DNA of 64,000 nucleotides from the NCBI GenBank assembly GCA_001244265.2, contig CDLV01000005.1:930001-994000 (forward strand), read 5' to 3'. Below the pieces are notes generated by a model. The model did no database searches and was not told where the DNA came from. It saw nothing but the letters and a program-made list of their open reading frames with translations. The translations under genes and the position numbers were made by a program. Source of the DNA: Microbotryum violaceum (taxonomy: Eukaryota). Numbering within the stretch: position 1 is the first letter of the stretch; each line of letters starts with the position of its first letter. This document shows, in pieces, positions 19,789-64,000 of this stretch.

Positions 19789-22285
19789 TCAAGCCATCTC
19801 CTCCTCCTCCTCCACCTCAAACTTGAGCGTCGTCTGCTTCGCATTCTTCCCCTTCCCCAAACCCTTCCCACCCTTCGTTTTAGCCTTCTTTGCCGTCACT
19901 GCTCCCTTCCCCTTGGCATTCTCTCCCTTCCCCTGCGCGGTTTTGCGCTTGGTCCCGATCGAGACTTTCTCGTCCGTTTCCTCGTCCTTGACCTCGGCAT
20001 GTTTGGGCAAAAATGACTCGACGTATGCGTTTGCTGTGCCGTCCAATACTTTGGGATCGTCGCCTTGTAATTTGGCTGAATAGGCGGCTTTGATCAACGT
20101 GAGCGCTTTGGCTTTGGCGACTTTGTCGTCGACCATTCGCTTGAGGAGAGAAGCTCTCGGTCAGCATGAGAAGACTCTCCAACACGACACCGCGGTAACT
20201 CACTTCAGGATATGTTGTGCCCAACACGACCTTGGCCTTCTTCAACTCTGCCGGACTAGCATTCCAAGGTTCGTAAATGTACTTGTCGCTCAATCCATCC
20301 AGCTCGGGACAATACTTCCGAATCAATGCCCCGGACTTGTCGCTCTTCTGGCCATAGGTCGCAGGTGAATACACACGAAAGTATTGCGAGAAAAACGCGG
20401 AAGCCGATAACCACATCCAGTTCCCGGCGTTGAGTGCTGGGTCCCAATCTATCAAGTAGCGATCAAATACATCGGCACCGCGTTCCCATGAGATGTAAAG
20501 TTGGCCACGCGTGAGGAAACAGGCGAGCGAGTGGCGTCCGAGATGGTGAACCCAGCCCTCCTGTCGCAGTTGTCGCATCAATGCGTCCTACGAGCCGGAG
20601 GACTGCATCAGTCTTTTGCTGATGAAAATCACTTCACCTGCAGCATGACTCACGATCCACGGGAAACCGGTTCTGCCCTCTTTCCAAGCTTGAAACTGCT
20701 CAAAAGCTTTGGACTCTTCTTCTCTCCAGATCTTCTCCATCTCGGCTCGGGGAAGTTCATCGCCTTGTTCGTCGTATCGTGTTTGTAGCGACCAAGTGAT
20801 GTATCGAGAGGCATTGTTGCCACGGATTCGATTGAAGTACGGAGTGGCGGCTTGATTGGCGTGATAGAACTGGGCGAAGGAAGGTCAGGTCAGTCACGAA
20901 AGATAGCGACCTCGCGCACAGCCTATGCAGCTCCGTACTCACCTCGCGCCAAAGAAGCTGACCTATCAAGCTCTCAGGAGGCGTTGCATGGGCTTTGAAT
21001 TTGGCCTCAATCTCTTTGACGCGGTACCAGAAGAGCCGACAGCTCAACGTCCCAAACTTCATATGCGGACTAAGCTGGGTCGTGGCCGGTGGCTGGAAAG
21101 CTGCAGGAGACGTTTTGGGCTTTTCGAACATCGCGACCGTTTTTTCGTCTTCCATGAACGCTTCGAAGGTTCGCAAGGCATTGTTTTCACCTCCACGAAT
21201 CGTCGTCGTTGCTTCCATGCCCAGTTCTTCCATCGTCGGCACAGAAAAGTCCCCTTTCGGTCCAGCGAATTGAGTTTCGTACGTACGCTCTTCCTGCGTC
21301 GTACGCCCTTTGCGTGATTCATGATTGACGTCGCCCTTGCGCCAAGTCGAAACGTCGTGTGCCTTCTTGTTCTCCTCTAAATCCTTAAGATCGGTCGGCC
21401 CCGGATCAGGCAATTTCTTCGGTGCGTCGATCGGTTTCGAAGGGGTTGTGGCCGAGGTGAGAAGTTTTTGAAACCCTTGCAAGGTGCGAGGGAAGTGTGT
21501 TGCTGTTCCATGGGCTTTGATGAGCTCCTCAGAGTCCCAGAGGGTGTGGCCGAGGACGGTGTGGACGTTGATGCCTGCCTGGGTGGCGAGTCCCCTCACG
21601 GAGGCATCTCGAGATTGCGTATAGGGGTCATCGTCCTTTTCCCTGCGCACGGAAGCCGAAAGTAGCTCGTCGTGTCAGTAAAAGCCGTACGAGTATTAGA
21701 TGAATTTACAGCCGGCACCCACCAAACGATGTCGGTGATCTTCCACTGCTTGAATAGAGCCGGTAGCACGGTCGTTGGCGGTCCTCGGACGACAAAGAGC
21801 TGAGATTTCTTGTTGATCTTGGTGATGCTCTCGGAAACGTCCTTCATCGAGTCAAGTCTGGACAAGATATTAATACGATACGTAATTAGAACCGAAGTTG
21901 GGTCGAATCGATGGCCAATCAGGGGCTGATGTGCAAACGTGCAGAAATTGCCATCGATTTTCCCCGACCGACTGGGAGTAGACGTAATGTGGGCTATTGT
22001 AGAAAGTCAGGGTCGTGAGTACTTTCATCCAGAACATTGTTTGCTGTCTGCACTCACTCCCATGTCCATACGGGGTACAATACCTCGGGTCTGAGAGCCA
22101 GAGCAGCTGCCAGAGCGGGCGAGTCTGCCGCCAGCCGTGCCGATCGAGTTCATTAGCAGCGCGATCGACAGCTGGGCCAGCGATCGATCGATCGTCGGCG
22201 TCGAAGGAGATGCAAACTCACCATGTAGCCTGAGATCGGTCCTGAACCAGTAGATGACCCTCTTTGAAGCCAAGGCGGATGCCAT
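19789..22285 (-). CDS. (6-4) photolyase / animal-type cryptochrome family flavoprotein; multi-exon
   Basis: VIYWFRTDLRLH, RWQFLLDSM, TTQLSPHMKFGTLSCRLF, SLIGQLLWRE, MRQLRQEGWVHHLGRHSLACFLTRGQLYISWERG and NAGNWMWLS. The HH..RH and WMWLS motifs are typical of (6-4) photolyases. Confidence 0.92.
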
Positions 22286-27861: not shown

Positions 27862-30800
27862 TTAAGCGGCCCCGGCGGCTTGCGGAAACAGACCTGCGGG
27901 TTGGGTCGGAAAGTGAAATGCGCTAAGCGTCAGCTCCTTCGCAAACCTCGATTTCACCCGATTCGACACCGTCGAGGACCACGAGATTATGTATGGTCTT
28001 ATCGGTTTCATCGTTGATCCAAGCATGTAACGCAATGTACTTACCGGCACGTCTTCGCATCACAATCTGTTGAGACCCCGCGGAGAGCGCAGTGCAATAT
28101 TATCCGTCAGCTCCGCGTCGGGACATCACGCAGCACAGCGACAGAGCGACGCATTGGGGATCGTGGAACCGACCTTGTTGATTATGGCCAAAAGGTCGGG
28201 CTTGCGCAATGGCTTTGTGAGATAATCGTCTGTACAATCGCAACGGCAGGAGTCTGAGGGTCAGCGATTGGCCGAAGAAAAAAAAATGGCGGCGCGCTTG
28301 TGCGCGTCGTAGCCTTCACTCACCCATGCTGTGTTGTGCGGAGCCGCCGTCAATGCCAAGCCATCGTCAAGTCAGCGTTCGGAAACCGTTTCTCGCACCA
28401 CAGAAGTTAAGAACCGCCACTGGATACGTACCCAGCCTCGATGCACTTCTCGCGGTCACCGAGCATAGCATGTGCGGTAAGCGCGACGATCGGTAGGCGC
28501 TCCAATCCATTCGTCTCTTCAAACCGTCGAATGATTTGAGTCGCCTCCATTCCACTCATCACGGGCATGCTAAGATCCATGAGGACGATGTCGTAGAAGC
28601 CACGCTTGACGGCCTCCAACGCGAGTGCACCGTTCTCGACGATCTCGACTTGGTGACCAGCGCTTTCGAGGAACTTCATCGCCACCTTCTGGTTCACGAC
28701 GTTGTCCTCGGCGAGCAGGACCTTGAACGAGGCATCGCCTCCCCGCTCGGTCGGGATGCGGTTGCTGGCCTCGAGCGCCGGCAATAAGGCGTTGCACATA
28801 TCCTGTGCGTTCGTCGGGGACTCGACGCAGTTGGCGACACCAAAGTCGAGGCAGTACTTGAGATTGAGCTGGGGGATCTGAGGGGTGATGAGCACCAAGG
28901 GGATGTAACGCAGATGGTCGACATCGCGCAGACCTGACACCACATCTAAGGAATCGACGAGCACCGTGTCGAAGTAACCCATCTGGGCCTGGTCGAGCAA
29001 TCGGGCTTCCTCGAGCGAGTCGACGACTGTGATCTCGAGCCCGAGTTGCTCGACGGACTCGATGACGCTCGGGTCGTGGTGCAACGTGTCGATGAAGAGG
29101 ATGCGCCGACCGGGGTGGGGGATGAGTGTCTTTTGTCGTACAGCTTCCAGATTCCATTCCCCAATCTTGCATTGGATGGTGAAATAAAAGTTGCTGCCGC
29201 GCCCGAAGTGACTCGTCACCCAGAGCTCGCCGCCCATCAGCTGCACGAGCCGCTTCGAGATCGTGAGCCCCAGACCCGTACCGCCGTACTTGCGCGTAGT
29301 TGAGCCATCGGCTTGGGCGAAAGTGTCGAAAATGAGGTTCAGCTTGTCGGGCTTGATTCCGATACCCGTGTCGCTGATGCAGAACTCGAGCTGGTACGTT
29401 TGCTCGTCGAGGTCGGCGGTTTGCAGCCGGCACGAAAGCGCGACCTGCCCTCGCTGCGTGAACTTGATAGCGTTACCGACGAGATTGGTGATGACTTGTC
29501 GCAAGCGGAAAGGATCGCCGACGAGCAGGTCAGGAATGTCCGATTCAACTGCATACATGAGGTCGAGCTTGCTCTGGGTCGCCTTAACAGCCAGTGTTTT
29601 GAGCACCCCAAAGACGGCGGATCGAACGCTGAAGGGGATTGTTTCGACAGTCATTCGACCGGCCTCGATCTTGGAAATATCGAGAATGTCGTCGATGATG
29701 AGTAACAATGAGTTGGCGAGGTTTGATACAATCATGAGATTCTCCCGCTGCTGTCGAGTTAACTCGGTCTCCAGTGTCACGCCTGTTAGGCCGATGATAC
29801 CGTTCATCGGAGTTCGGATCTCGTGCGACATGTTCGCCAAGAACTCGGACTTAGACCTGTTGGCTAGCTCGGCCGCTTCCCTCGCCATCGTGTTCTTCTG
29901 CAGACTATCGCGCAGCGAAAAGACCATCTTGTTGATCTTGGTTTTAAGCGAATCCATCTCTCCGCTGGCTTCGACTGTGACGAAGGAGCTGAAGTCACCC
30001 TCGGTCGCGGCCGCCGAGATCTGAGCGAATGCGCGCACTTGGGATGTCAAGTTCGTCGCCATCGTGTTGACGTTCGAAGTGATCTCCTGCCACGTCCCTT
30101 CGATGTTATCGACCTTGGCCGTCACACCGAGATTGCCTTTGGTCCCCACTTCGTGGGCCACGCGCGTCACTTCAGCAGCGAAGGTCGCCAAACGGTCGAC
30201 CATCGAGTTGATAGTATCCACCAGACGCAGGACTTCACCATCAGCGGCGATCGTCACTTTTTGACTCAAGTCACCTCGAGCGACGGCAGTGGTCGCTTTT
30301 GCAATTGACCGCACTTGATCCGTGAGGTTACCGGCCATTTGGTTGACCGAGTCAACAAGCGATTTCCATTCACCCGAGACGTTCAGCACGTAGGCCTGTC
30401 CACCGAGCTGTCCATCGATACCGACCTCCTTTGCGACTCGAGTGACCTCGGCTGCGAAGAGGCGAAGCGAGTTGACCATGTTGTTTACAGTTCGCTATAT
30501 AGGCGGAGGAAATGACGTTAGTATTGCCAGTCGGCCAGTTCCCTTACCCGTCGACAGGGTCACTTACCTTGAGATCTAGCATTTCACCCCTGACTTCCAC
30601 CTCGATCTTCTTCGATAGGTCGCCTTCCGCGACAGCTCTTGTGACGGTCGCGATCGACCGCACCTGATCGGTCAAGTTGCCAGCCATCTGATTGACCGAA
30701 TCGACGAGCGACTTCCATTCCCCTTGCACACCTTCGACATTCGCCGTTCCTCCGAGCTGCCCTTCGGTGCCGACCTCGAGCGCGACCCGTGTCACCTCGG

Positions 30801-32725
30801 CGGCGAATCGACGCAACTGCGCCACCATGTTGTTGACCGTCATCTTGAGGTCGCGAATCTCTCCCGAGGCACCGATGTTGACCGTCTTGGTGAGGTCACC
30901 CATTGCAACGGCTTTGGTGACGGACGCGATCTCACGCACTTGCTCCGTCAAATTCGAGGCCATGCGATTGACATTCTCCGTCTGTAAGAGATTGAGCGTG
31001 TGAGTGAGCGGCTATGTTCGAAGACATGCAGTGTTTGAAGTGCTTACCATTTCTCGCCATGTACCCTCGACGCCGTTCACCACGGCCTGGCCCCCTAGCT
31101 GACCCATTGTTCCGACCTCGAGGGAAACACGGGTGACCTCGGACGAGAACACGCGGAGTTTGTAGACCATGTCGTTGACCTGACATTAGAAATTCGTCAA
31201 AAATGGAAGCCTATACGTTCATTTCAGTCAGAACTCACCGTCTCTTTGAGGGTAGCCATTTCACCCTCGACCTGGGCATCGATCGTTTTCGACAAACTGC
31301 GCGCAGTGAGCTGTCAGCTTCGTGTTCGAGCTTCGAGCTGGTAAACCGGGTCGCAACTCACTCTCCATGGGCGATTGCGGACGTCACGATGGCAATGGAC
31401 CTGGACGGCAGGGAGAGGCAGTTGTCAGCCGGACGGAATGCCCGCCTCGGGCTGCCTTAGGGGTAGCTCACCGAACTTGAACAGTAAGATTGGTCGCCAT
31501 TTGGTTGACCTGTCAGAGATGGAAGCGTCAATGACCTGAAATGCTCTACGCGCAAACTTGCATCAACAAACCGTTTCAGTCACTGTATGCACGCGGAGAA
31601 AGGTGTGTCAACTAGATGAATCGTGCCACTAAGAGCTCGCATCCACGACTGACAGGTCTTCCAGGTCCCTTCAACCCCAGTTACGATGGCTTGACCACCC
31701 AATTGACCCATGGTTCCGACATCGAGAGACACGCGCGTCACCTCGGACGAGAAGAGCCGCAGCTTGAACACCATTTCATTGACGGTCTCCTTGAGCATCG
31801 CCATCTCGCCTTCGACCTCGGCATCGATCGTCTTGGACAAGCTGCGTGAGGGAAGCGATCGCATAAATCAGCAAACGAGGGCTTGAGCCTTGGAATCAAG
31901 TTCGACAAGTCGGGATTCGGAATACTGACTCTCCACGTGCGATTGCTGAAGTAACGACGGCGATAGATCTGAAGGAATCATGAGCACCATCAGCTCCCAT
32001 TCCTTTGGCAACAAACCCGAGGACCCCAAGCAGACTACGGACCTGACTTCTTCGTCGTGGGAAGCTTGGGCTCGATGCAATTCTTCGGCATGCAGCATCT
32101 TGAGGGCTTTGATCTGGATTTGGGCCGATTTCCGCACCTCTTCGACCGAGTTGCCCACGACGGTAACCGCTGCCCTCGACTTGGCCAACCTCTCCACGTC
32201 AGTGAGCTTGAGGTCGACCTCGTCGTCCTCGTCGTTCTCGTCGTCCTCATCCTCCTCCTCGTCGCCGATGCCGTTGTTGGCGGTATGGTCGTTGTTGTTG
32301 GTCTGTTCGTCCAGCTCGGCCGCGGCCTTCAGGTTGCGGATTGAGTCTGGCTTGGGCCCACTGTGACTCTCACGTGCCGCACTGACCGACTTGCGCGGGG
32401 CGCCGTTAACTTTCGCGCGCTGGAGCTGCAGTTGCTCGGCGATCCTCGACAGGCTGTCGATGATGTCGTCCGTCTCCTGGGGTTTCCCCTCGGGCAAGGC
32501 GGAGAAGGTTGCTGGAGCGGCATGACTGGCGCGTAGGTTGGCGAGATGATGCGCGAGCGAGGTCGGGTTCGCTTCGATCGAGGTCAGCAGCGAGAGCAGA
32601 AACGCCGGGAACGAGTGGATCGCGGTCGCAGCCGAGGGAGACGGCGACGATGCCGACAGCGTTGAGGAGGTGGGCAAGCTTATCATCACCGAACGCACCA
32701 CAGCTCCTCCATCCCCACAGCTCAT
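27862..32725 (-). CDS. NIK1: Group III hybrid histidine kinase (Nik1/Os-1/Tco1 type): ~5 HAMP repeat units plus a terminal HAMP, HisKA, HATPase and receiver; start uncertain
   Basis: Repeated ~92-aa units VRSIA.VT.A.A.GDLSK...[21 protein letters not shown]-box [17 protein letters not shown]-box [11 protein letters not shown]-boxes DTGIGI and GGTGLGL, receiver VLLAEDN...[10 protein letters not shown]...AGMDDYLTKP. The last exon ends [10 protein letters not shown]. Confidence 0.93.
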
Positions 32726-34680
32726 CGTGGTGGTCTTCGTGTTGAGGTGGCTGTGGTCGTCGTCGCCGCAGTTGCCGCTGTCCTGGTGCTGAGACTATCT
32801 GCTCGGAGGCTTTGTCTTGCCTCCGCGGTCGGTTCCAACTCGCAAAGGGGAGGGGGCCAGACGCAGCACGTTCGACGCTTGTCGGTTCACTCGCTCGTTC
32901 CAACGCCTCCACTGGCTCGGTACAGATACGCAACGCGTCTGCAGAGGAAAAGGGGCGATGGGTCTTCGAGCGGGTCGGCGTTTTCCTTCGCGAGATAAGT
33001 GGGGGGAGAATAGAAAAGGCGCAACAGCGCGTTGACGACAGTTTGATTCCCTCGGGAGCGCGCGCCAAAGCTCGCCCGTCCGAGCGGCGCAGCAGTACTG
33101 GTCGGCCAGGCACCCAGCCGCGACGACGTAGATCGTTTCATTTTACAGACTCCATAACAGCTCGCCCCTTTAGCAAGTTTCAAATCACGATCTAGGTGTC
33201 ATCTGGAGAAGAAAAAAACCAAGGAAGTGGAGAAAAATCTCACGCTCGGGCGCCTGGTGGGGAAGATCGTTTCCTTAGCACCGAATCAGGACTTAGCAAG
33301 TTAGTTGAGCACGACCTCCTTTTGTTGTGTTTCGCGCGCCAGTCGCACCGCTCGGTCAAACGCGCACCCGTTCGCCGAGAAGTTTTGAGTCGGCTTACGG
33401 GGGCGAAACGGGTGAGACCTCCAGGGATATCTCCTGCGAACCCCTGAAACCTTACCACGTTCATTATGAGGCGCGTCATACCATTCGTCTGTCTCTTTCA
33501 AAGGGAGTCTACGCCAGGATTAAGAACTGACACTGCACGCTGTGCGGCGTGTTCAATTAATAAAAAGTCTTTGGATGAGGAGCTCGAGCTCGCGCTAGAG
33601 AAGGAGCTGCTAGCTGCTGGCGGGCAGTGGTGACTGGTGAGGAAACTAATGGCCTCAGTGTCAGCTTGACGTGCCTGCACGGGCCGCGTGCGCTCCCGCG
33701 GTAAAAGGAAGACTAAAAGAAAATACCCCGAAATGGAGTCCAAAGCGATCTACGCTACCACAAGCTGCACCTGAACCCTGCCCAACGTGCGAGGTTGCAC
33801 CGCGTGCACTGCAAGCTATTTTCGAGATGTCGGTAGATCTTGCGTGGATAACGATGTCGCCCCGGTGAGAGTGAGTCGCGTGTTCATCTTGCTTGTCCTT
33901 CGTGGTCTCTGGCACTTGTTGACTCCTCAGTGTTGGTTCTCTCATGCTCAATTTCGCGAACACAAAACATTTTCGTTTTTCCGACTCTTGTGTTTGCTCC
34001 ACTTTGCCTTGGGCTCTACATTTTTGTACCTGCTAAAACGGTCGGACCGTTTCGAACGCCATGCACTAGTGGGACTGTTGACCGGCCGATGCCGAGATCG
34101 AGAGGGAGCCGTAAAAAAAAATCTGGATGCCGATCCATGCATGTATCACCGAGGCGATGCACAACCGATACTTGTGAATGAATGGGTACGTATACCCGAA
34201 AATAAGGAAGGGAGAAATAACATGGTACCATAGGTGCAATGCACTGGTCGCGCGATCTTACCCACCGCAGGACGCCGGTCGATCGGCTGGTTCTGGCGCG
34301 AGGGCAGTAGCTTGGCGCGCGGCTGTGATCAATCATACCGAAAAAGCTACCGAAATCATACCGACCACATTCGAAACAAGGCCCGTTGGCGCGCTCGGCT
34401 CTTGTTCTTGCACCGACGACACTCGAGCTCACCCAAATCGACAAGACCTCGGCGCGACTCCTCGCCGTTCAGCCATCAACGTCCTTAGGTGTTGCGGCTG
34501 TTATTTCCGTGCCGTTCCCTGTGGTCGTGGTCCCTGCCGCCAACGTCGTCGTCGTGCTTCTCTCTGCTCGAATCCGATCCCTCGGGTCGCGCTCTAGCGT
34601 GAGACAGCCGCAGCCGTGCGAGCGACCAAGCATCTGCTCCTCGTCCTCGCCCCTGTGCCTACCCAAGAGTGTCGCCCACA

Positions 34681-35457
34681 ATGGTCTACTATGTGAGCTT
34701 GGATGGAGCCGGTACATCCATCCACCACACGACGACTTTTCGACCCCCATCGTCGGCCGGGGGGGTCGCTGTGTGTGGTGGGCAGGCTACGACGTGTGCC
34801 TTTGTTGCGGGCGTTCGAACGAACCCGCAGCTCCGTACGCGCTCAACTGATCGCATTGCCTACTCTCCTCCCATTCCAGATCTGCCCGCAATGCCAGACC
34901 CGTTCCCCAACCTATGACGAGTCGATGCAACACTGTGCGTTTCATCTCCCACCAGCGTTGAGGCGTTTGTCGCAGCTTGGTTCTGTTTCTGCACCGCGCT
35001 GGCCGGCCGCTCTTGCCGAGTCCGGCGTCGAATCACCTTGGGTTCACAGTCTTGGCGGATGTGTGGGGGGTTGTTGCCCGTTCAGGGCGTCGGGCAATTC
35101 CTCAAGGGTGGCTTCGGGGAAACATACCAGGCAATGTTGAAGTTGACTTTTGACATGGTCGTTGTGTGAACAGACACAAATTGCACGGTCGTACGACCTG
35201 CCAACATCGACGCCTTGGGGCGACCGATCGTACCACCACCGGGTCGGAAAAGCGACGGCGACAAGGACAAGGACAGCGACGATCTACGGAACGAGGACGA
35301 GGCACACAATCCGTCGTCGCAGCAGCATCAGCAAACATACCAGACTCAGAGCGAGACCAAAGGAGACAACGCCACACGGGAAACTTTAGCAGACTCGAGA
35401 CCGGACGAATCAACGCACCCCCAGTCGCAGTCGGTGCAGGAACGGCAAGATCCGTAG
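34681..35457 (+). CDS. Predicted 116-aa microprotein with an N-terminal CCHC zinc finger (C-x2-C-x12-H-x3-C) and a disordered acidic tail; exons 34681-34692, 34880-34934, 35174-35457
   Basis: Canonical donors (GTGAGC, GTGCGT) and acceptors (TTCCAG, GAACAG) with consistent phases (0 and 1) give MVYYICPQCQTRSPTYDESMQHYTNCTVVRPANIDALGRPIVPPPGRKSDGDKDKD...ERQDP*. Confidence 0.7.
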
Positions 35458-36243
35458 TGCCGCACTCGGTTCCTCCTCCCTCTCACGGCACCAAGCTCGT
35501 CACGTATCATTCGCCCTTTCGCATTGTTCTCGTTATCGCATCTTCTACTTTTCGCTTTCGTCGGCTAGGCTACGACTTCTTTCCTGCTTCATGCGAACGT
35601 TCATCCAGAGTTCGGATGTTGTTTTTCTTTCCGTTCGGTTTCTCGTTTCAGTCTGCTCTCCTTTTGCGCTGCGTGAGTTGCATCGCTGATCAGCACGAGC
35701 CCTCTAGGCCCCAGTCTGACTCCGGCATTTCGCCATCGTCGTACAGGTGCTGGGTGGCAAAATTCTGCCAGTTTGTGGGCGACCGGCGTTGTCGCTAATT
35801 TCTCTTCCTCTTCCTGGTTTCCCCCGTGGTGGTACCCCGCTTATTTGTTGACCCGTGCGACGAGGTGACCGTTCACTTCGATCAGATGCACTCCGTAGCT
35901 TTCCTTTCCATCGCTCGCAAAGCAGAGGTTGGGAAACAAGTCGGTGCATTCGTTTCGATTGCACACTTGAGAGCTCTTGCTTATGTAATAGATGAGGCCC
36001 GGTATTTCTCAACTGCACTCCACGTGATGTTAATGTCGACAGTGTGCCCTACTTGTATGAGCATGTGTACCGACGCGGCCGAGCTATTAACGACAAAGCC
36101 CCGCATTGATAAGCCCTCTCGGAGTTGGTAATCGCGAATTGGAACCGCATGCGATGCCCACGCACCGGCTGATCTCGCCCTCCGAGTCCCCTCTTCTCTC
36201 TCTCTCCGTCAGATCCCTCTGGAACAAGACAATTGACTCGACC

Positions 36244-39200
36244 ATGGACAATGTCTCTGATTCACCCAAGGGCGCAGGAGCCGAGAAGGTCTCCAATCCG
36301 GTTGTTGAAGTGACACCCTCGTCGTCGTCCTCCACGGCCGGCGACGACATTCCATCGTCATCGCCATCGTCATCGTCATCGGCGTCCACCCAACCCTCCA
36401 CGCTAATCGGAATCGGAATCGGAATCGGAATCGGAATCGGAATCGGCGTCGCGCCCCCCGCAGCCTCCGAATCAGCGACCCCGCTGAACCCGACCGAACT
36501 CTTCCTCGACGCAACACGAGGTTTCGACTCTCTGCTCAACAACCAACTCGACGAAGGCAAACGCATCTTTGAACGCTACCCCGACTCGGCCGCGCACAGT
36601 GTCGGACACGGCATCTCCGTCTTCTTGCAAGCCGCTCTGGGGCAGGAAGATCAGGCGCTCTATGGCGCTCTCAATGCGTTGATGAAGGCCGAGACGTTGT
36701 CCACCAAGGAGGTCAATGCCAAGAGGAGTGTCGGAGCCGGGGTGTATGCTCCCGGTTTAGAGTACAAGGTACGTCGCACGAGGTGGATCGCGTTCGATGC
36801 CCGCAAGTGGGGCGCAGTACCGACCGATCCCCCCCGCTGCGGTCACGCTCGAGCACCTTTGCAGCATGAGCGGGACGAACACCAGGCTCACCTCCGCCAT
36901 CATGACCCCGACAGGCTCTCGTTTCGGATGCGGTCATGAGTCAGGCCCTGTGCCATGTCCTGACCGAATCTTATGTGTCAGTCCTCCAGCGCCTCTCGGC
37001 CCGGCCTAGACTGTGCACAGCAATCTTGGTGATTTTGAACGCTGACTGGAACCTTGTTTTGGAATGTACAGAGAGTTTATGAAGGCCATATACAAACTCA
37101 ACCGAGCATACAAAGGCTTCAAGTCTCTATACACGGTGGGTCGGGTCTCGGAGGCCGGTGAGCGCGTGCAACTGAGCCGTAACTCGTTCTCCTCCGACTT
37201 TAGGTTGTCTTTCCCGACGGAGTCAGCGAATCCGACTCGCTTGAGTCCATCTTTACCAAGCTTAATTCCAACTACCTCGCCAAGACCGAAGGCGCACAAC
37301 CGTCTTCAACTCCGGGGCGATTGACCCCGAACGGAGCCTCGACTCCCACCTCGGCCACCACGCCAACGCCTTCGACCTCTTCCTCTCCTTCTCTCTCCTT
37401 CTTTGGGTCTTGGGGACGAAAGAGAGCCGATCCAAACGCAGCGGCCATAGTGGATGTCCCGTCCAACCTCTTACGGCATTCGTCCTCGGCCGTCACCTTG
37501 CCCTCGCAAATCTCTAAGCTCGGGAAAACCGACGAGAAACCTAACATCAAGATCGCCACCTCGACACCAGGGTCCAACTTGGCCAGTCGGAGTGCCAGTT
37601 TCGAGATTCTCAAGGGACAGAGGATCGAGCAGGGCGTCGATGGATCTCACCCCGCCCCTCTGTGGAAGGACGATCCGATCACGTCCCTCGTCATCGGTGG
37701 AGCTGCTTTCGGTTATGGACTTTTTGGACTGATGTGAGCTACAAGATCATCTTTTTCCAAGCTCGATCGCTCTCCGACCTAATGCACTGCACTCTGCCTG
37801 CAGCTTCTCTCTGCTACCGCCCAAGCTGCGAAAACTCATCTCGTGGTTCGGCTTCGGCAACTCGAATCGATCGGCGGCGCTCAAACTGCTGACGGTCGCC
37901 GCCTCGACCGGCAACGACACCCATGCCGCTTTCGCATCCTTGACTTTGCTGACGTTCTATTGTGTTGTGCTACTAAGTGGGTCATATTATACGAGTCGCA
38001 TGAGGACCATCAGCTGACGTTGCACATCTTCGATTATCTACAGTGAGTGGATGGCAGTCGGACGAGGAATACCTACTCAGTCAATGCGAGATCGTACTGG
38101 AACGCGTCATCGAGCGTTTCCCCGAAGGCACGCTGTGGATCCTACAGCGGGCCAAGATCGCTCGCATGCGCCACGACGTCCACACCGCGATCCAAGTCCT
38201 CGAGACGTCCTTGTCGCAAGGCTCGTCGTTCCGGGAAGCCGATTCGTTGCTTCAGTTTGAATTGGGGTGGTGCCTCCTCTCGGACGGACGGTTCGTGGCT
38301 ACGGCTGATTCGTTTGAAAGGATGTGCGAGTTGAACAACTGGAGTCATTCGACCTACGTTGCGATTGCTGCGGGTGCGTTGGTCGATGATCGAAGGCTGA
38401 CGGGTGGATCGGAGGAAAAGGACCAGAGGATCGAAGCGGCGTTCAAGAGGCTTGAAGATTTGTTGGTCGGTGGTAAGAGCAAGAGGATGATGGGTGAACC
38501 ACCGACAACGGAGATGTTCCTCAACCGGAGGCTCAACAGCTACAAGGCCAAGCATGCACGCTGGATCGAAGAAGGACGCTTGCCCAAGACGAGCAGTTAC
38601 TGGGAAGCGGTGCGCATGACTTCGGCGATGGAGCTAGGCTTCGTTTGGGCGACGATTGGGGGAAGATCCCCTCCTGCAGCGATCAGGGCGCAGATCGACT
38701 ACTTGGCTTCGTTGACGCCTTCGCCTGCTTTCGGACCGCATGCCCAACATCCCGCTTCGCCCTCTCCGCTACGACGTTGCTCGACCTCGGATGATCTCGA
38801 CACACTGGACGAGATTGCGACGAGGTCCTTGCTCCTAGGTGCCTTGTATCGCTCGCTCGACGACGGACCATCGCTCCATATCGCACGCGAATTTCTGCAG
38901 TCCATTACCAAGCACAAGGAAGGGATTAAAGAGGAGAAATGGGTCCCTAGTTTCGCCTTGTTCGAGCTGGCCGTTGTGGAGTGCAAGGAATGTGAGTTGG
39001 AGACGAGGAGGCTGGAGAAAGAGGGGGTGGAGGGGAAGGTGGTGGTGGGGAGGTGGAAGGATGGATTGGGCAAGGCGGAGAAGCTGATTGAAAACCTGTT
39101 CGCGAGTGGAGAGTATGATTTGAAGAGTGAGTCTTGCAGGTTCTTTGCGAGTTGAAAAAGGGATGCGGGACTGATAGCTGAGATGCCTGACTGTGTTCTA

Positions 39201-39411: not shown

Positions 39412-40091
39412 TCATGGCCACGCATACAAACTCATCCTGACCCTCCCCCCCGAATTGGCACCTCGAAAACCCCAGCCATCATGGGCCTCGCCTCCCCGAG
39501 CCGCAGGAGCTCCATGGGTGCGTTGTGGAGGCTGATCGGGGATATCGTCGACTTGGACGCCTTCGGCTATGAGCCATTCCGCTTGACGCGCAACGGAGAC
39601 GTCGTTCATCCGGGGGGAGATTTGACCGTTCGAACTGACGACTCGATGCCAGGGGACGAAATCTGGGTTCAGGTCGGGTTCGGCGAGGGGTGCATCGGCG
39701 TCGGCGTCGGCGTTAGCGTCGAGTGGGGGGGAAGGTCGTTGCGGTAGATGAGGGGAGGATAGGTTACGGGGGAGGAGCTTGAGTGCTGCGCCTACGTGGC
39801 GGGAATGTTTGGGGTGGCCGATCAGGGTCGCGATCCGACCGTAGGAACTGACCTGTGTTGGACGTGGAGCAAGTCAGCTATCTTCGTAGTAGATAGGTGA
39901 ACAAGATATCAAGAGCCGCTCACCCTTCCCTCCGGTATAGACCTGACCGCATCATACACGAGCCGATGGAAGTGCAGGTCAATCTCCACCCGAACCGCAC
40001 CGTCGCGGGGTGGGGGTGGCGTCGCGAGGCGGAGGTTTAGGTCATCTCCTCGGTTGGCTGCTGCACGTCTTGGTCGATTGACGCGCGGCAT
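39412..40091 (-). CDS. ATL1: Alkyltransferase-like protein (ATL; MGMT fold with Trp replacing the catalytic Cys); 2 exons
   Basis: FHRLVYDAVRSIPEGRVSSYGRIATLIGHPKHSRHVGAALK...VPWHRVVSSNGQISPR...RQAEWLIAEGV. The motif is PWHRV rather than PCHRV. Confidence 0.9.
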
Positions 40092-46311: not shown

Positions 46312-49300
46312 TCAGTTGAGGTATTTGCGGCACAGCGGGTGGCCGCACAAGCAAGGAATCTTGACCTCTTCATGAGGGAAATGATAATCTGAGGAAAAAC
46401 TCGTCAGCGATTATCCTCCGATCCTGATTCAACGTAAGACGCGTCCACTGACCATAAGTGACTTCTTCGCCCGGCTCAATGTCCGTCTTGGCGTAAATGA
46501 CAATCTTCTTGACGCTGTTGATGGTGATGATCTTGGCCGTGCAGTTGGGCGCGCAACAATGGTTGATCAAGCGGCTGGGTGAAAAAATGTGTGAGTTGTC
46601 GGCCGTCAAGAGGACACAGCGAGCAGGGGGAACTCACCCTAGGTTACCCTTCTTCGTCGCATCGACCACTAAATCATCATCGACTCGGAAAAGGTAACTA
46701 CTACCGATACCTTGCCTCTCGTACGCCTTCTCGCGACGATCGGCAACTTGCTGGCGGATCAATTCTCCGACATACTCGATCACCATCTCGCCGGCGGGGA
46801 TGTGTCTATAAGTCGCCGGCGACGATTGGTCAGCTCAATCATTCGTGCGTGGTGTTCGGCAAGCAAACTTACTCGAGTGCAAAGAGACCATAACCTTCGA
46901 TGCCCGAACGCGAGAACGTGAGCTGCTTCTTGCGTGTCCTCAACTGGTTGAATTTGAGCACGTCCGTATCGGTCTCGGTGACCTTCTTGTGCAATTCCAT
47001 GCCGCGCACCAGTCCTCGCACATTCGCGCGAGCGGACCTTGACACTGAATGCCCCGATGCCAGCGTAGGAGCGACGACACCATCCGTCGCAGCGACTTTG
47101 GTTTTGCTGCCCGTGTAAGCCGGGCGATTCGCCATCTTCTCCGCGACCGACACTTGGTAGTAGCCTTCCGTCTTGGCGGCACCGGTCCTATGGACTTTGC
47201 GCACCGGGATTGGTTTCTCTTTGACTGCGGCACCCTCGCCTTCGCCCTCATCTTCCGAAGTAGGAGGGGTGGGGTGCATCGCCGCCCCCGCACGCACACG
47301 CTCGATCGCCATCTTGACGTAGTAGAGATCCTCCTCGTCGGCCGCCAAGCCATCCTGCCAAGGGTCAAGAGGGATGAGGCGTTCAGCAGCGCGTCGGACG
47401 TGCCAGACCTTCTCGGCGCGACGTTCGCTTCGGGCGTGCTTGCGATCGGCTTTGGCCTTCTTCCACAGAGAAAGCTGCACTGGCGTCGGGATCGGGTTGA
47501 GGTACGCGGAGGAGTACAGCTCCGGCTTGGCGCTCTTCGACCACGATCCGATCGGCTTTCCATTGGCCGCGTAGCGAATGCGCTCAAAGTTGACGGAGAC
47601 GCACTTTTCGGTGAAGTCAGAAGAAATGGGGCGGAGACTTTCGAGCGCAGAACTGAGCGCCTCGTACAGCGTCTCGCGGGCACCGGCGAACTTGCTGCTG
47701 GTCTGGCCAGAGGTGTCCTGATGACCCCTACGTGCGAGTCGGTTCTGGGCAGAAGGTCCGCGAGAGTTGGGCAGAGCGTGAAGCTCAGGCGAAGGGAACT
47801 CGCGGTTGCCGAGCTCGGGGCTACCGTTGCGAGTCGATGCAGCGTCAACATCGACATCTTGGACCACGGGGACAGCAACGTCGAGCGCCGGAGTTACGAT
47901 GTCAGCCGTCGAAAGACGTTGCTTCGCCTCCTCGTCCTCGGTTTCGTCTTCACTGCTGGTGTAGTCGAATTGCGTCCTCTTGGCTTTGTAAGCCGTTGGA
48001 ACTTTCCCTTTGGTTCTCGACCTGGCGAGTGCCTTCTTCTTAGTTGGCGATGACTTGGCGATCTCCTCGATCTGGCTGTCTTCGGCATCGGATTCAGAGT
48101 CGGTCGATTTTGGGCGCAGGGTCTTTGATTTGCTGTGTTTACTCGGCGAGTTGACCGATGCGTGCACACTCTCGCTATCGGACTCTGGTGCCGAGGCCGA
48201 GGGAGAATCCGAACTTGCTCGCGAAGAAGCTCTGCGGAACACACGTCCTGCCAGCGCTGCGGCAGTGCGTTTGGCTTCCTCCGGAGGTGGCTTGACGCGC
48301 CGAGAGAAAGAAGGCAACGTCTTGAGCGCGGAGGTAGTCACCAAAGCGGTCGTAGGGATCGCCGTCGGCACAATGGATCGAAGAGATGATGCATCCGGCA
48401 AAGAGGCTTCTTCCTTCGGCTTGACAGGGGAAGGCGGAGCACTTATAGCATGCACCACCGTCGTCGACTCCCAACTCGCGACATGCTCGACAATCTTCGG
48501 CATGACGATTCGGCTCTTGAGGTCTTTCTGGAACGCTTCCAAAAGATCCTGCACAACGATGTCGCGCGCCTCCTGGAGCAGCTCTGCATCGGTCCAGCTC
48601 GTCTTCTTCGGCTTCGCAAGGGTGGCGTGTGCGTTTGACGGAACACTGGCAAGAGCAGAAAAAGCTTTGTGTCGACTCGGAGACGTCGCATTGTTCGTTA
48701 CGGCGTCGTGAAGTTTGAGTTCAAGAGGGCCAGCGATAAAGATTCGCCCCTGGCCGTGATCGTGCGCGCGTTTGGCGCCGGTCATTGAAGTGAATGTGAC
48801 GAACCACGCATCTTGAGTCGAGAGCGTCTGCGAACCAGGAATGGAGGGTGGCCCGTCAGAAGCAGGGTAATCACTTGTCACTTGCAGGAATAACTTACGC
48901 GATCGAGTCCAAACCGGTCAAACACCCCTTCAAGCTCTCGGGCGTTCATCTCGGCCCCACGATGGAGTCTGCGCGCCGCGGCAAACTTCTTCTTGTCGAT
49001 CGACACAAAGGCATGTCCATTTGCAGCTAGAGCTTCTTGCAGCAGTCGCTCGGTGGCCATGAAAGCGAGCGGCGTCTGTCGAGCATCACGACTCTGGAGT
49101 AGGCCACTCGCACGCCCCGATTTGACGGGTGAGTAAACGACATCAAGTCGATCATCCTTCTCTTCGTCGTCGTCGTCCCCGTCGCGCCTGAGCCCCTTGG
49201 CTTGATTCTGCTTCATGCGCTTCTTGGCTTGCTCAATCACGTCTTGAACGCTGTACGACGAGAAGCGGCCGCGCTGCTGAACCGGCGGGATCGGGTTCAT

Positions 49301-51607
49301 CGAGCGAGCAGGCCCAGGTCGACTCGGTAACACAGGTGCAATTCCGTTGGTTCGAGGCTGAGCAGACGACCAGGCCGAAGCTTTGGGCGGGAGTGCGGGA
49401 TGTTTGATGGGCAACACGGGCGGTGGTGGCGGTGGCGGTGGGGCATTGGAAGGTGGAGGCAAAGCATTGGCGTTCGCAGCTCGAGGCGTCGACGTGGAGC
49501 TCGACAGTCGAGTCTTGGCATCGAGTGCGGTACCTCCTGCTCGCGCCGAGCTCGATGTAGGAGCAGCTGCTGCAGGGTATCGCAGCTTGAGCTCGGCATC
49601 ATACGCCGCTCTGCACTTGGACCCGTCCTTGTCGATCTCGACCTTGATCCGCGAGCCATCGAGCAGCATCCTCATCCCAACCTGCGACCCGTTCCCCTTT
49701 TCGACCGCGTTCACGGCAGAGGCATTCCCATTCTGCGCCTTGCCCGCCTTAAGATTGGCCTGATACTGCTTCTTGACCTTTTCCTCGGCATCGGTCATGG
49801 GGCAATCATCGACGTATTTGATCCAGCACATGCCGAGATTGCCTCCCGTACGTCGATCGATCTTGACATCAAGAGTTTCGATGCGACCATAGAGCACAAA
49901 CGACTTGCGTAAATCTTGTATCGTCGTTTGCGAAGGGAACCCAGTGACGAGAACCGCCGAGGGTGCTCTCGAAGGCGCGGAGCCGATCGAGTTGTTGTCC
50001 CACTGCGAACTCACCATGGGTCAGCAAAGATCGAGCGGTCCGAATGATATTACCAAGACTGACGAGATAATGCAGCCGCCTCAGGGGTCGCTTTGCGCGC
50101 TCAGAAGCTTTCGCGCGACGCTCGATTGACTCAGTATCCTTGCGTCGAGGGTCCGTCACGTGACTCGCATCGATGCCTTCGCCGTCGTAGCGCGTCAGCA
50201 CCTCCTTGCCTTTCTTGCTCTTGTCGGTCTCTGGGTCGTACAGCACAAAGTAGTCCTTTACCCCCAAGGGCTTGTAGTGGAAAGGTACAATCGGTTTGCG
50301 AGGACTGCTCGGCTGTATCGTGCGAACTGGCTCCGCAAGTGTTGTCGACGAGGCGCGCTTCTCGGGGGAGACGGGCGTCTTCGACGACGAGGTCACCATG
50401 GGATCAGAAGCTTTAGATGGCAGAGGCAGGGGTGCGGAGGGTCTTCCTCGGGGTGGTGACCGGTCGCGATCTCGACGGGAGGAGGAAGCGGTCGGTCCCG
50501 GGGTCAATGAGTTTCGGTCTCGGTCATCTCGGGGACGGGTCGGATGTCGATCGTCGTGTCGGTGATAGGAATCGGATCGCCTTCGCCGCAAGAGCGGGGG
50601 CGTGTAGGAACGCTCCCTTCGACTCGAGTAGTAATCATCATCTCGCGAGTAACGATACCGACGGTCGTCGTCGTAGTCGTCGTAGTCGTCGTAGTCATCG
50701 TAGTCTCGGTCTCGGTCACGGTCTCGGTCTCGGCGATCGCGGTCCGACGGGTGGTAGCGCCGCGAGGATGGCGGTGGGGGTGAGCGCGACGAGTAACGCC
50801 TTCCGCGGCGGTCGCGATCATAGTCCGAGTCGTAGGCGTAAGGATCATCGCGGTAGTCGTCGCGGTAGTCGTCGCGGTAGTCGTCGCGGTAGTCGTCGCG
50901 GTAGTCGTCGCGGTAGTCATCTCGGTAGCGCGACCTCTTGGAAGGGCGGTAGGGCGAATAGCCTTCGGACGGGGACCGCTCCCTCCGACTGGACTGGCGC
51001 AGTGGAGGCGGCGAGCGCGAGTCACGGTATCGCCTTGATACGCGGGGGGAGCACGACGGCGACCTGCGTGACGAGGCCGACGGTGGAGGAGGTTTACGCG
51101 CTGACGAAGGACGTGAATCTGCTGAGGCCACATCGGAGTGAGAAGCTCGAGGTCCGGCGGAGGAGGTGCCATTAAGGCCAGGCGCGGCTGTCCGAGTTTC
51201 AGATCAAGCAGCCGCGCGTTCGAGAGAGCGACCGAGAGTGCACGAGACAAGAACAAGTCAGGACAGCCACGGTGGGAAGACTCCGAGAGGTCAGCAGGCT
51301 CATCGGAGACCATAAGAACCTTTGCCTGCATTTCTGAGCCGAAAGGAGACCTACCCGGGAATGTGGTGGCTGCAGCAGCCGACCGATTCGCGCTCGAGGC
51401 TGAACGCGCCTCGCTCGTCGTCGCAGCCGCCGTGAGGGTGGACTTCGCCGCAATAGTGGATGTTGCGGCAGCCGTCGAGGGCCGAGAACGCGTGGAGGAG
51501 CTGGATGAGGATCTGCGCCGTCGGGATGTCGAGGCCACCGGCCGCCACTCGTCCTCAACGAAGGGCGCCGGCTTGGCTGGCAGCGACGCGAGCCCACTCA
51601 AGCCCAT
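46312..51607 (-). CDS. SET1: Histone H3K4 methyltransferase Set1 (RRM, N-SET, SET, post-SET); multi-exon
   Basis: RRM VLVTGFP...[77 protein letters not shown], and the C-terminus [13 protein letters not shown]. Exon 1 runs from ATG 51607 and is spliced in phase 1 at about 51355 to 51188. Confidence 0.95.
50664..50930 (-). repeat. Coding tandem repeats in the Set1 N-terminus: 12-bp unit encoding (YRDD)~7, plus (RD)n and (DDY)n
   Basis: cggtagtcgtcg units lie at about 50851-50928, and tagtcgtcg and tctcgg units at about 50664-50735. Confidence 0.9.
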
Positions 51608-55000: not shown

Positions 55001-56264
55001 ATGCGCTCGAGCCGAGGGGGCCCTCGATCATGATGTCGAAAGCGCTGGCGATGTGGGCCGGCTTGCCGAAATTAGTCTCCCAAGGTTGCACAAAATCGGG
55101 GACGAGCAAGTTCGAGACGGTGAAGCCGGAGAGACCGGCCTTGGGCCTCGAACCACGTCCAACCGCGCCCTCGTCACGAATCTCTCCACCGGAACCAGTT
55201 GCAGCTCCGGGGAAGGGAGACACAGCCGTCGGGTGATTGTGCGTTTCGACCTTGATCAGGATCGGCATCGCTTCCTCCTTGGCCGAATAGACTGACATTT
55301 TGGCGTTCTCTGAAGCCGGTGCGGCCGCAAACCGAGGGGCCGACGAGCCTTCAATGACGGCAGCGTTGTCAGAATATGCCGAGATGGTGTGCTGAGGGGT
55401 AATCTTGTGCGTGTTTCGGATCATCGCAAAGAGCGAATGGTCCTGCGCGGCGTCGTCAAGAGTCCATGCGGCGTTGAAGATCTTGTGTCGACAGTGCTCC
55501 GAGTTGACCTGGGCGAACATGAAGAGCTCGACGTCGGTAGGGTTGCGCCCCGAAGCCGAGGAAGCGACAAAGGCATCGACGAGATAGTCGAGCTCGTCGA
55601 CGGCGAGAGCCAAGCCGAGTTCCTGATTCGCCTTGATGAGGGTCGTCTTCGCCTGCTCTCGATCTGCAGAAGCCGACTTGTCCCCGAGAATATCAATTGT
55701 TCGGAGAGGCGCGGGTGAGCCCCGCTCGAACATGGACTTTGCGGCCGGCTTGGAGTCGAGCAGGAGCTGGGTCATGCGGTCGTGAAGATGATGAGCCACG
55801 GGCGCGAGGTCGGCGACGGTGAGAGAGTCGCTGGCGCGGAAGACGAAAACGATGCCACGCTCGATGCGTTGCACGACGTCTGCGAGCTGGCACATCCGGG
55901 CGATGTCGGTCGCCTTGCTGGACCAGGGCGAGATGGTCCCAGCGCGAGGAGCGACGAAAATGACCGAGCTCGACAGAGAAGTGGTCGAAGCTTCAGCCGA
56001 CGAGCCCGCCAAGGCCGCCGCTACGGCATCCCGAGTCCCCTCGAGAGCGTAGTCATCGCCATAGTCGAGCAAAGTCTTCAAGATGGCCCGCTCGGAAGAG
56101 GACTCGGAATCGAGCTTGAGTGCGGTGTCGTCCGACCGGGCGGCGACGTAGTGAACGTAGACGGCATCGACCGAGACGAGCGAAGGCAACGCGATCGACA
56201 ACCGATTGAACAGAGCCGAGCGCTGGTTGGGGTGGAGCAACGAAGCACCGGGAAAAGCCAGCAT
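52045..56264 (-). CDS. ADE6: Phosphoribosylformylglycinamidine synthase (FGAM synthase, large PurL type); 2 exons
   Basis: [65 protein letters not shown], and the glutaminase domain [25 protein letters not shown]. Confidence 0.97.
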
Positions 56265-63649: not shown

Positions 63650-64000
63650 GCTGTGCGGCGAATGCTGCGCTAGCCTGGTTCCGACCAAGTGGTCTCCCTT
63701 CTCCACGCGTGACGAAGGAAATGCCGCCACAGGGGAGGCATTCCATTTGTGAGCGAGGGGTCGATAAAAGCTCGAGGGAGGGAAGAAGGTCGTCCTGGGT
63801 CGATGTGGCGAGAGGTGAGCTATACCAGACGCCGAATGATCGGGGCATTTCTGCGTGAATATCATTTGCTGGGAGCTGCTCAGCATCCAGTTACCTGGAA
63901 ATTAGCAAACGCCCTGGAACTGAAGCATCGGCTCCCTGACGACCGCGACAGCGTCGTCTCTGCACACTGACCGGAATTCGCGGCTGGGACATTCAGACGG

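What the first reader, a model, noticed from the sequence alone, without database searches (positions are those of the whole stretch)
34681..35457. Hidden 3-exon microgene encoding a stand-alone CCHC zinc finger spaced like the NEMO/optineurin UBZ finger
Seen: in a 3.5-kb gap that looks intergenic, exons of 12, 55 and 284 nt splice with canonical sites and correct phases. The product is MVYYICPQCQTRSPTYDESMQHYTNC followed by about 90 disordered D/E/Q/S-rich residues (116 aa). The fourth ligand Cys appears only after splicing, which argues against chance. Known: aromatic-x-C-P-x-C-x12-H-x3-C is the spacing of the ubiquitin-binding CCHC fingers of NEMO and optineurin, and resembles UBZ fingers generally. 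Inference: this is an easily missed microprotein that may act as a ubiquitin- or protein-binding adaptor or decoy. It is transcribed divergently from the NIK1 histidine kinase.
Basis: partly seen in the sequence, partly recalled or inferred. Interest (0 to 1): 0.7.

Follow-up and report, generated by a model that had tools for sequence, protein, structure and literature searches.

The report
Conserved yeast zinc-finger microprotein family
This is a real, spliced small gene for a one-zinc-finger protein shared by anther smut fungi and red yeasts; it is already listed as 'hypothetical', has no named family, and lacks the usual signs of a ubiquitin-binding finger.

Summary
The gene is real. Exons and phases check out. 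Both predicted junctions occur in spliced contigs from two studies, and a fourth, non-coding exon was missed. It is not hidden: the product is identical to annotated hypothetical protein MVLG_04710 of Microbotryum. Orthologues of 77-170 aa occur in three orders of Microbotryomycetes; no named hit lies outside the class. Fifteen of the first 30 residues are invariant in 17 of 17 aligned proteins, the tails are unrelated, and both intron positions are kept. AlphaFold gives a beta-beta-alpha C2HC finger. No Pfam zinc-finger family matches. The ubiquitin (UBZ) reading rests on spacing only: similarity to the NEMO finger is not significant (E 0.2; the EEA1 finger scores as well), and the acidic or D-A-L determinants of three UBZ groups are absent in 17 of 17. 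Most likely a stand-alone protein-binding finger with an unknown conserved partner. It stays near NIK1 in 4 of 4 testable lineages, but the R. toruloides locus is non-essential and does not copy NIK1 mutant phenotypes. Verdict: undescribed class-restricted microprotein family of a known fold; moderate interest.

The parts
34394..34680 (+). 5' leader of exon 1 (start at or before 34394-34422; no upstream ATG)
   Evidence: contigs X6 and X12; no ATG in 34394-34680
34681..34692 (+). coding part of exon 1 (4 codons, M-V-Y-Y), phase-0 donor
   Evidence: same 12-nt coding exon in 7 of 8 metagenome loci
34693..34879 (+). intron 1, 187 nt, GT..AG
34880..34934 (+). exon 2, 55 nt: C6, C9, helix and H22 of the finger
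34935..35173 (+). intron 2, 239 nt, GT..AG, phase 1
35174..35457 (+). coding part of exon 3: Y23, C26, conserved V-V-R extension to residue 30, Microbotryum-conserved stretch to residue 56, then fast-evolving disordered tail and stop
35458..35672 (+). 3' UTR part of exon 3
   Evidence: joint in X2 and X12, approximate in X6
35747..36040 (+). exon 4, non-coding; end approximate
   Evidence: annotated locus length 1645 nt fits 34394-36040
28407..32725 (-). NIK1-type hybrid histidine kinase gene (HAMP, HisKA, HATPase, receiver), divergent neighbour; 3' end runs somewhat below 28407
   Evidence: Pfam; first Met of the N-terminal ORF at 32725, 1956 nt from the microgene ATG; MVLG_04711
36246..39155 (+). 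IML2/TTC39-like gene, downstream neighbour (not conserved as neighbour); 3' end approximate
   Evidence: Pfam PF10300; MVLG_04709

Best explanation
A single-copy, four-exon gene of Microbotryomycetes makes a small unsecreted protein whose working part is residues 1-30. SHOWN: splicing, conservation, purifying selection on the N-terminus, free drift of the tail. PREDICTED: C6, C9, H22 and C26 bind one zinc ion in a beta-beta-alpha fold. INFERRED: the finger is a protein-docking module. Its invariant non-ligand residues (Y3, Y4, P7, R12, Y16, S19, M20, Y23, R30; Y16/M20/Y23 at i, i+4, i+7 on one helix face) form a surface for one conserved partner other than ubiquitin. Having no catalytic or second domain, it would act as a small accessory subunit or competitive blocker of that partner, with the tail as a passive disordered extension. 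The role is modulatory, not essential.
For: 15 of 30 N-terminal positions invariant in 17 of 17 full-length proteins from two orders, 11 of them not zinc ligands; 0 of 56 N-terminal against 23 of 55 tail positions differ between P0005 and P0004 (Fisher p 5e-9); in X6 the 3 listed changes in codons 24-56 are all synonymous, while codons 57-116 have 9 non-synonymous, 3 synonymous and a 6-nt in-frame deletion (40 of 75 differences were listed). AlphaFold pLDDT 83/86/77 for residues 1-30, below 50 for the tail. Nearest sequence matches among solved structures are all protein-binding single fingers: EEA1 (E 0.13), NEMO (0.2), TAX1BP1 (0.37). The base-contacting positions of DNA-binding fingers (-1, 2, 3, 6 = residues 15, 17, 18, 21; numbering from established knowledge) are mostly Glu, variable, variable and mostly Val, and there is only one finger. 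All full-length relatives found are small stand-alone proteins with the finger at residue 1.
Against: No partner was identified and no binding was tested. All structural and sequence matches are below significance (Foldseek E 1.6 or more; VIA Z 3.0 at best). Invariant Tyr and Arg residues also fit RNA binding. The R. toruloides model at this locus (RTO4_10296) is absent from the proteomics sheet, though that model seems to be a different reading of the locus (194 aa over 582 nt, no NP11 match). Searches for fused or longer forms were limited: searches covered at most 203 aa; only one search covered all lengths, with a three-sequence profile.
Confidence: 0.5

Rival explanations
1. One reading: a stand-alone UBZ that binds the Ile44 patch of ubiquitin through the helix face Y16/M20/Y23, acting as a ubiquitin decoy or adaptor.
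For: Same C-x2-C-x12-H-x3-C spacing as NEMO with 8 identities over 23 residues; best VIA-align row is the optineurin finger 5AAZ (Z 3.0, rmsd 1.4, 28 aligned; identity of 5AAZ from PMC5010046); NEMO finger 2JVX rmsd 0.9 over 25 columns.
Against: Matches are not significant and are tied with non-UBZ fingers. FAAP20/Pol eta D-x-H-x-A-x-C-L motif (PMC4267625): 0 of 17 have D, A or L at these places. Acidic residue at H+2 (CEP55 E460, RAD18/WRNIP1 mode; PMC6817665): 0 of 17. NDP52 D439 at H-1 (PMC5010046): 0 of 17. Acidic residue at H+3 as in NEMO: 1 of 17 (all). No Pfam UBZ family for 18 of 18 members. The NEMO-specific similarity (Q8, Q10, P14) is Microbotryum-only; the family profile finds no UBZ in the PDB.
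Confidence: 0.12
2. An RNA-binding single finger (like U1C/matrin, JAZ or GTSF1 fingers) that uses invariant Tyr and Arg residues, as a small subunit of a ribonucleoprotein.
For: Four invariant Tyr, invariant R12 and R30, R32 in 14 of 17; JAZ-dsRNA, TUT1-U6, GTSF1 and spliceosome chains are among the tied VIA rows (Z 2.2-2.5).
Against: Few basic residues in the finger, acidic residues common at 14-18; Pfam RNA-finger families not matched; core RNP subunits are usually wider than one class and often essential, and this locus is not essential.
Confidence: 0.15
3. A dedicated modulator of the NIK1-HOG osmotic/fungicide pathway, kept beside NIK1 for co-regulation; the S/T-P site after the finger would be a MAP-kinase site.
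For: Within 1-4 kb of NIK1 and facing away from it in the window, L007 and L008, and numbered and placed next to NIK1 in R. toruloides: 4 of 4 testable lineages, while the gene on the other side differs (IML2, RAB4, enoyl-CoA isomerase). S/T-P in residues 31-45 in 13 of 14 Sporidiobolales proteins.
Against: An aldehyde dehydrogenase gene lies between the two in L007. In R. toruloides, RNA levels do not correlate (r 0.04, 13 conditions) and fitness barely does (r 0.31, p 0.12, 27 conditions); NIK1 mutants gain 3.0 on p-coumarate, RTO4_10296 mutants 0.24. In planta NIK1 is in the differential-expression table, MVLG_04710 is not. S/T-P absent in 3 of 3 Microbotryum. No background rate of adjacency conservation was measured.
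Confidence: 0.1
4. A Rab5-family GTPase-binding finger like that of EEA1, acting as a free effector competitor.
For: EEA1 finger is the top phmmer row (E 0.13; 9 identities over 21 residues); EEA1 binds Rab5-GTP through this finger (PMC5902227).
Against: Not significant; fourth ligand is Cys, not His; no coiled coil or FYVE; much of the identity (Q8, D17, E18) is Microbotryum-only. Not modelled with a Rab.
Confidence: 0.05
5. Not a protein-coding gene (chance ORF in a non-coding transcript).
For: No proteomic or ribosome-profiling evidence was found (one search has no row for the locus model).
Against: Protein-level conservation with synonymous drift and conserved intron phases across orders.
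Confidence: 0.01

Closest known systems
MVLG_04710 / UniRef100_U5HC20 and orthologues (RHTO_06839, BQ2448_4703, BMF94_2314 and others)
   Same: Identical protein; same place between IML2 (MVLG_04709) and the histidine kinase (MVLG_04711).
   Different: All are labelled hypothetical, with no domain. Several models look wrong at the small exons (P0012, P0023, P0025, P0026, P0028; inferred).
NEMO / optineurin / ABIN2 / CEP55 C-terminal UBZ fingers
   Same: CCHC ligands with 2-12-3 spacing, aromatic residue two before the first Cys, C-P, predicted beta-beta-alpha fold.
   Different: Here the finger is N-terminal and alone, with no coiled coil or UBAN; Ser where NEMO has the core Leu three before His; no conserved acid next to His; no significant sequence match.
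EEA1 N-terminal C2H2 finger (Rab5 effector)
   Same: Best, non-significant sequence match; single protein-binding finger near the N-terminus.
   Different: C2HC rather than C2H2; no coiled coil or FYVE.
MYST-family C2HC finger (MOZ, TIP60)
   Same: Fold match in the tied rows (1M36 Z 2.4; 2OU2 rmsd 0.9); C2HC ligand set.
   Different: Those are embedded in an acetyltransferase domain; no sequence match.
Classical Kruppel C2H2 DNA-binding fingers
   Same: Fold and 12-residue spacing; language-model neighbours are zf-C2H2 clusters (score 0.94, 139 of 256 features shared, under the 170 typical for members).
   Different: Single finger, Cys as fourth ligand, Ser at both canonical core positions (S13 16 of 17, S19 17 of 17), no basic base-contacting residues.

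Membership tests
beta-beta-alpha (C2H2-like) zinc finger, C2HC type | C-x2-C-x12-H-x3-C ligand set, conserved | tested here: met
   C6, C9, H22, C26 in 17 of 17 full-length proteins (left out: P0012, which lacks C26 and may be mis-spliced, P0023, and fragments P0024-P0026); also in 7 of 8 metagenome loci
beta-beta-alpha (C2H2-like) zinc finger, C2HC type | hairpin plus helix fold | tested here: met
   Predicted only: pLDDT 77-86 for residues 1-30, helix 16-25; rmsd 0.6-1.1 over 23-27 columns to many solved fingers, E not significant
beta-beta-alpha (C2H2-like) zinc finger, C2HC type | binds one zinc ion | not testable with these tools
   needs metal titration
classical DNA-binding C2H2 finger | aromatic at C+4 and Leu at H-3; tandem fingers; base-contacting residues at -1, 2, 3, 6 | tested here: not met
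   S13 (16 of 17) and S19 (17 of 17); one finger; positions 15/17/18/21 acidic, variable or Val; consensus from established knowledge
NEMO/optineurin UBZ | 2-12-3 CCHC spacing and fold | tested here: met
NEMO/optineurin UBZ | significant sequence or profile match | tested here: not met
   phmmer E 0.2 for 30 aa; family profiles find no UBZ at E 10; no such Pfam family for 18 of 18 members (HMMER filters drop most matches above E 0.1)
NEMO/optineurin UBZ | C-terminal finger of a coiled-coil/UBAN adaptor | tested here: not met
   N-terminal finger in 77-127 aa proteins with low-complexity tails; architecture of the family from PMC6817665 passages
NEMO/optineurin UBZ | residues of the NEMO finger that contact ubiquitin | tested here: inconclusive
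   No paper listing them was found. By alignment the family has Y, M, Y where NEMO has M, Q, V on the helix, and an acid at H+3 in 1 of 17
UBZ domains generally | binds ubiquitin | not testable with these tools
   needs NMR, ITC or pull-down
UBZ2/UBZ3 (FAAP20, Pol eta) | D-x-H-x-A-x-C-L / D(-4)-A(0)-L(+3) motif | tested here: not met
   M at H-2 (17 of 17), T/N/S at H+2, T/D/K at C+1; motif from PMC4267625 discussion
UBZ4-like (RAD18, WRNIP1, CEP55) | acidic residue at H+2 | tested here: not met
   0 of 17; CEP55 E460 between H458 and C462, PMC6817665
NDP52-type UBZ | Asp at H-1 (D439) | tested here: not met
   V/Q/I in 17 of 17; PMC5010046
EEA1-type Rab5-binding finger | C2H2 finger on a coiled-coil/FYVE tether; Rab5-GTP binding | tested here: not met
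   C2HC, no coiled coil or FYVE; binding itself not tested
LYAR-type C2HC fingers (resemblance recalled from memory) | match to zf-LYAR | tested here: not met
   no match for 18 members; the genome's zf-LYAR match lies on another contig

The most novel reading that the evidence does not exclude
A class-wide, stand-alone zinc-finger microprotein that works as a free competitor of a conserved signalling interaction (ubiquitin through a non-acidic, aromatic helix face, or a component of the NIK1-HOG phosphorelay next to whose gene it has stayed across three orders). It would be a new binding mode or the first small-protein regulator of a fungal group III histidine kinase pathway, testable in R. 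toruloides.
Probability: 0.15. Interest if true: 0.7.

Novelty: new member of a known kind. Interest (0 to 1): 0.38.

Why it matters
It defines an unnamed, strongly conserved 30-residue finger family in red yeasts and anther smuts, with an unusual serine-rich core, that gene finders often model wrongly because of its 12-nt and 55-nt exons. An invariant surface on so small a protein points to one conserved partner, and R. toruloides offers genetics to find it. If the partner were ubiquitin or the NIK1 pathway (the target of fludioxonil-type fungicides, from established knowledge) it would be a new regulatory device. As it stands it is a well-supported orphan family of a common fold, already present in annotations.

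Tried and rejected
Complex prediction of residues 1-33 with the fungus's own ubiquitin and zinc: no verdict (score 0.01, mark 0.34, alignment not used, controls not folded); not counted for or against. Word-based homologue searches with single sequences reached only Microbotryum; the tblastn-confirmed metagenome scan found nothing because of the introns. No listed run was on record as RNA; spliced joints show that X2, X6 and X12 hold RNA-derived contigs. First AlphaFold run (3 sequences) was too weak, as was its fold search. No VIA-align row reached Z 5; unlisted families are not excluded. Pfam zf_C2H2_10 found no candidate in the genome, a weak test for a finger split over three exons. Rfam: 0 matches in 32700-36400. 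ESM Atlas: unnamed or zf-C2H2 clusters, no family assignable. Literature: 0 papers for MVLG_04710, RHTO_06839, RHTO0S05e08372g and neighbours; 0 for NEMO contact residues; 1 irrelevant hit for a family description. RHTO_06839 is not in the RTO4 mapping table. L011 rejected as a chance match to the motif (no exon structure). Intron-retained C2H2 isoform rejected: His at H+4 in the window only, in none of 7 related loci. Secreted-effector reading rejected: no hydrophobic N-terminus (sequence directly). A profile-based paralogue search of the genome was not available; single copy rests. Earlier scan findings were not available. Files 13-24 of PMC4469406 were not searched and may hold expression data.

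Full report
OBSERVATION. The three exons are at the stated coordinates, with GT..AG introns of 187 and 239 nt and branch-like sites, and splice to a 116-codon ORF. Four public runs were laid on 34000-37300. Two, from different studies, hold contigs with both joints exactly as predicted: X12 (near-identical to the window, depth about 260) and X6 (a relative with about 6% differences, depth 48). X2 covers only exon 3 onwards; X1 shows unspliced low-depth pieces. The same contigs splice the neighbouring IML2 introns, so they are RNA-derived. They add a leader from 34394-34422 without upstream ATG and a 74-nt intron at 35673-35746 in the 3' UTR, so the gene has four exons. That is chance, as none of 7 related loci has it.

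IDENTITY. The product is letter for letter MVLG_04710 (KDE04849.1), a hypothetical protein of Microbotryum. The genome paper's table lists it, 1645 nt long and without domain, between MVLG_04709 (IML2) and MVLG_04711 (response-regulator domain) (PMC4469406, supplement 2; I saw the search listing and three table rows; 12 of 24 files were not searched). So it is not hidden from annotation. It is single-copy by protein search of the genome.

FAMILY. HMMER over 1.84 billion representatives gave 8 hits at E 0.001 or better, all with the match starting at residue 1: M. intermedium, three Rhodotorula, two Rhodosporidiobolus, Sporobolomyces and Leucosporidium. A profile search gave 20 proteins at E 1 or better among 8000 scored candidates of 42-203 aa; 17 are named and all are Microbotryales or Sporidiobolales; the 3 unnamed are Rhodotorula-like fragments. 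In 17 full-length proteins (3 Microbotryum, 14 Sporidiobolales; P0012, P0023-P0026 and duplicates left out) 15 of the first 30 positions are invariant: M1, V2, Y3, Y4, C6, P7, C9, R12, Y16, S19, M20, H22, Y23, C26, R30. Tails are 47-86 aa and share only low complexity. Between P0005 and P0004, 0 of 56 N-terminal and 23 of 55 tail positions differ (p 5e-9). A motif scan of metagenomes gave 8 loci; 7 (about four lineages) have the same 12-nt coding exon 1, 55-nt exon 2 and C26 in exon 3; L011 is a chance match. No Pfam family reaches its cut-off for 18 of 18 aligned members; the weak rows are zinc-ribbon knuckles. Absence outside the class is limited by sensitivity for a 30-residue, three-exon domain.

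STRUCTURE. With 8 sequences AlphaFold gives pLDDT 83, 86, 77 for residues 1-30, a hairpin and helix 16-25, and disorder beyond residue 40. Foldseek overlays it on many beta-beta-alpha fingers at about 1 A, none significant. VIA-align ranks the optineurin finger first (Z 3.0, rmsd 1.4, 28 aligned), tied with DNA-, RNA- and MYST-type fingers (5AAZ identified from PMC5010046, passages). With the 30-residue core, phmmer lists EEA1 (E 0.13), NEMO (0.2) and TAX1BP1 (0.37). The family has Ser at both canonical core positions of classical fingers (consensus from established knowledge), and invariant Y16, M20, Y23 in i, i+4, i+7 register.

UBIQUITIN TEST. The spacing is that of NEMO, but the determinants of characterised UBZ groups are missing in all 17 proteins: the D-x-H-x-A-x-C-L motif of FAAP20/Pol eta (PMC4267625, passages and discussion), the acid at H+2 of CEP55 and the RAD18/WRNIP1 mode (PMC6817665, passages), and Asp at H-1 of NDP52. 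The acid that NEMO has at H+3 is present in 1 of 17. The identities to NEMO beyond ligands are largely Microbotryum-specific, and family profiles retrieve no UBZ. I found no paper listing NEMO's contact residues, so a hydrophobic NEMO-like mode stays open. I put ubiquitin binding at about 0.12.

NEIGHBOURHOOD. The gene faces away from NIK1 in the window (1956 nt ATG to ATG), L008 (about 1.2 kb) and L007 (about 4 kb, with an aldehyde dehydrogenase gene between). In R. toruloides the orthologue RHTO_06839 is numbered next to NIK1 (RHTO_06840) and RTO4_10296 occupies that place. The other neighbour differs: IML2, RAB4, or enoyl-CoA isomerase then NPT1 (the last two named by my reading of ORF translations). 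Of the 24 other R. toruloides genes seen, only a 3'-5' exonuclease family recurs among 102 window ORFs scanned (small exons would be missed). Function data do not support a pathway link. RTO4_10296 is 'not essential', with fitness within 0.52 of zero in 27 of 27 conditions (PMC7873862 supplements 3 and 4, rows; PMC5922974 supplement 1, row: 18 insertions). NIK1 mutants gain 3.0 on p-coumarate against 0.24; RNA correlation is 0.04. In planta NIK1 and IML2 are in the differential-expression table and MVLG_04710 is not (PMC5919739 supplement 2). Caveat: RTO4_10296 is a 194-aa model over 582 nt without NP11 match, probably another reading of the locus, so its data are positional only, and no osmotic or fungicide condition was among them.

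MECHANISM. Shown: a spliced, expressed gene under purifying selection for 30 (in Microbotryum 56) residues. Predicted: one zinc-bound beta-beta-alpha finger. Inferred: a docking surface for one conserved protein partner, acting as accessory subunit or competitor, non-essential in culture (0.5). Rivals: RNA binding (0.15), ubiquitin (0.12), NIK1-pathway modulator (0.10), Rab binding (0.05).

NOVELTY. Known fold, annotated gene, but no named family and no paper found under its locus tags (the library lacks most subscription papers and searches main text). It works like single protein-binding C2HC fingers; it cannot be filed as a UBZ. New member of a known kind; interest 0.38. The boldest reading not excluded, a free microprotein regulator of ubiquitin or NIK1-HOG signalling, has probability about 0.15 and would merit 0.7.

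Noticed in passing
window 36084-36165: An X12 contig skips 82 nt with CT..AC ends, i.e. a GT..AG intron on the minus strand: a spliced antisense RNA between the microgene's 3' UTR and the IML2 start. One contig, one study.
   Followed up: partly
window 35673-35746; L005, L006, L007, L010 just after the stop: 3' UTR intron in the window; donor-like sites 14-48 nt after the stop in 4 of 4 related loci checked (shuffle P 0.03-0.11 each), suggesting a conserved non-coding last exon. Acceptors not confirmed.
   Followed up: partly
family residues 31-45: S/T-P motif in 13 of 14 Sporidiobolales proteins, absent in 3 of 3 Microbotryum, which keep a different invariant Pro/basic stretch to residue 56.
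   Followed up: no
L006 and L008 against R. toruloides scaffold 12: Gene order suggests that NIK1 and the microgene were inverted together relative to the NPT1/enoyl-CoA isomerase pair.
   Followed up: partly
public models P0012, P0023, P0025, P0026, P0028, RTO4_10296: Several database models of this gene look mis-spliced or extended at the small exons.
   Followed up: no
window 36406-36447: GGAATC hexamer run encoding an Ile-Gly repeat in the IML2 N-terminus; shorter by 6 nt in X1 and largely absent in X6.
   Followed up: no
window 19883-20587 (-), 39415-39873 (-), 46872-51203 (-), 52048-56264 (-), 62228-63901 (-): Ordinary neighbours by Pfam: photolyase/cryptochrome FAD domain, alkyl-guanine DNA-binding protein, SET1-like, FGAM synthase, 3'-5' exonuclease.
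   Followed up: no
R. toruloides RTO4_10295 (NIK1): NIK1 mutants gain fitness on p-coumarate (+3.0), galactose (+0.9) and ferulate (+0.8) in published data.
   Followed up: no
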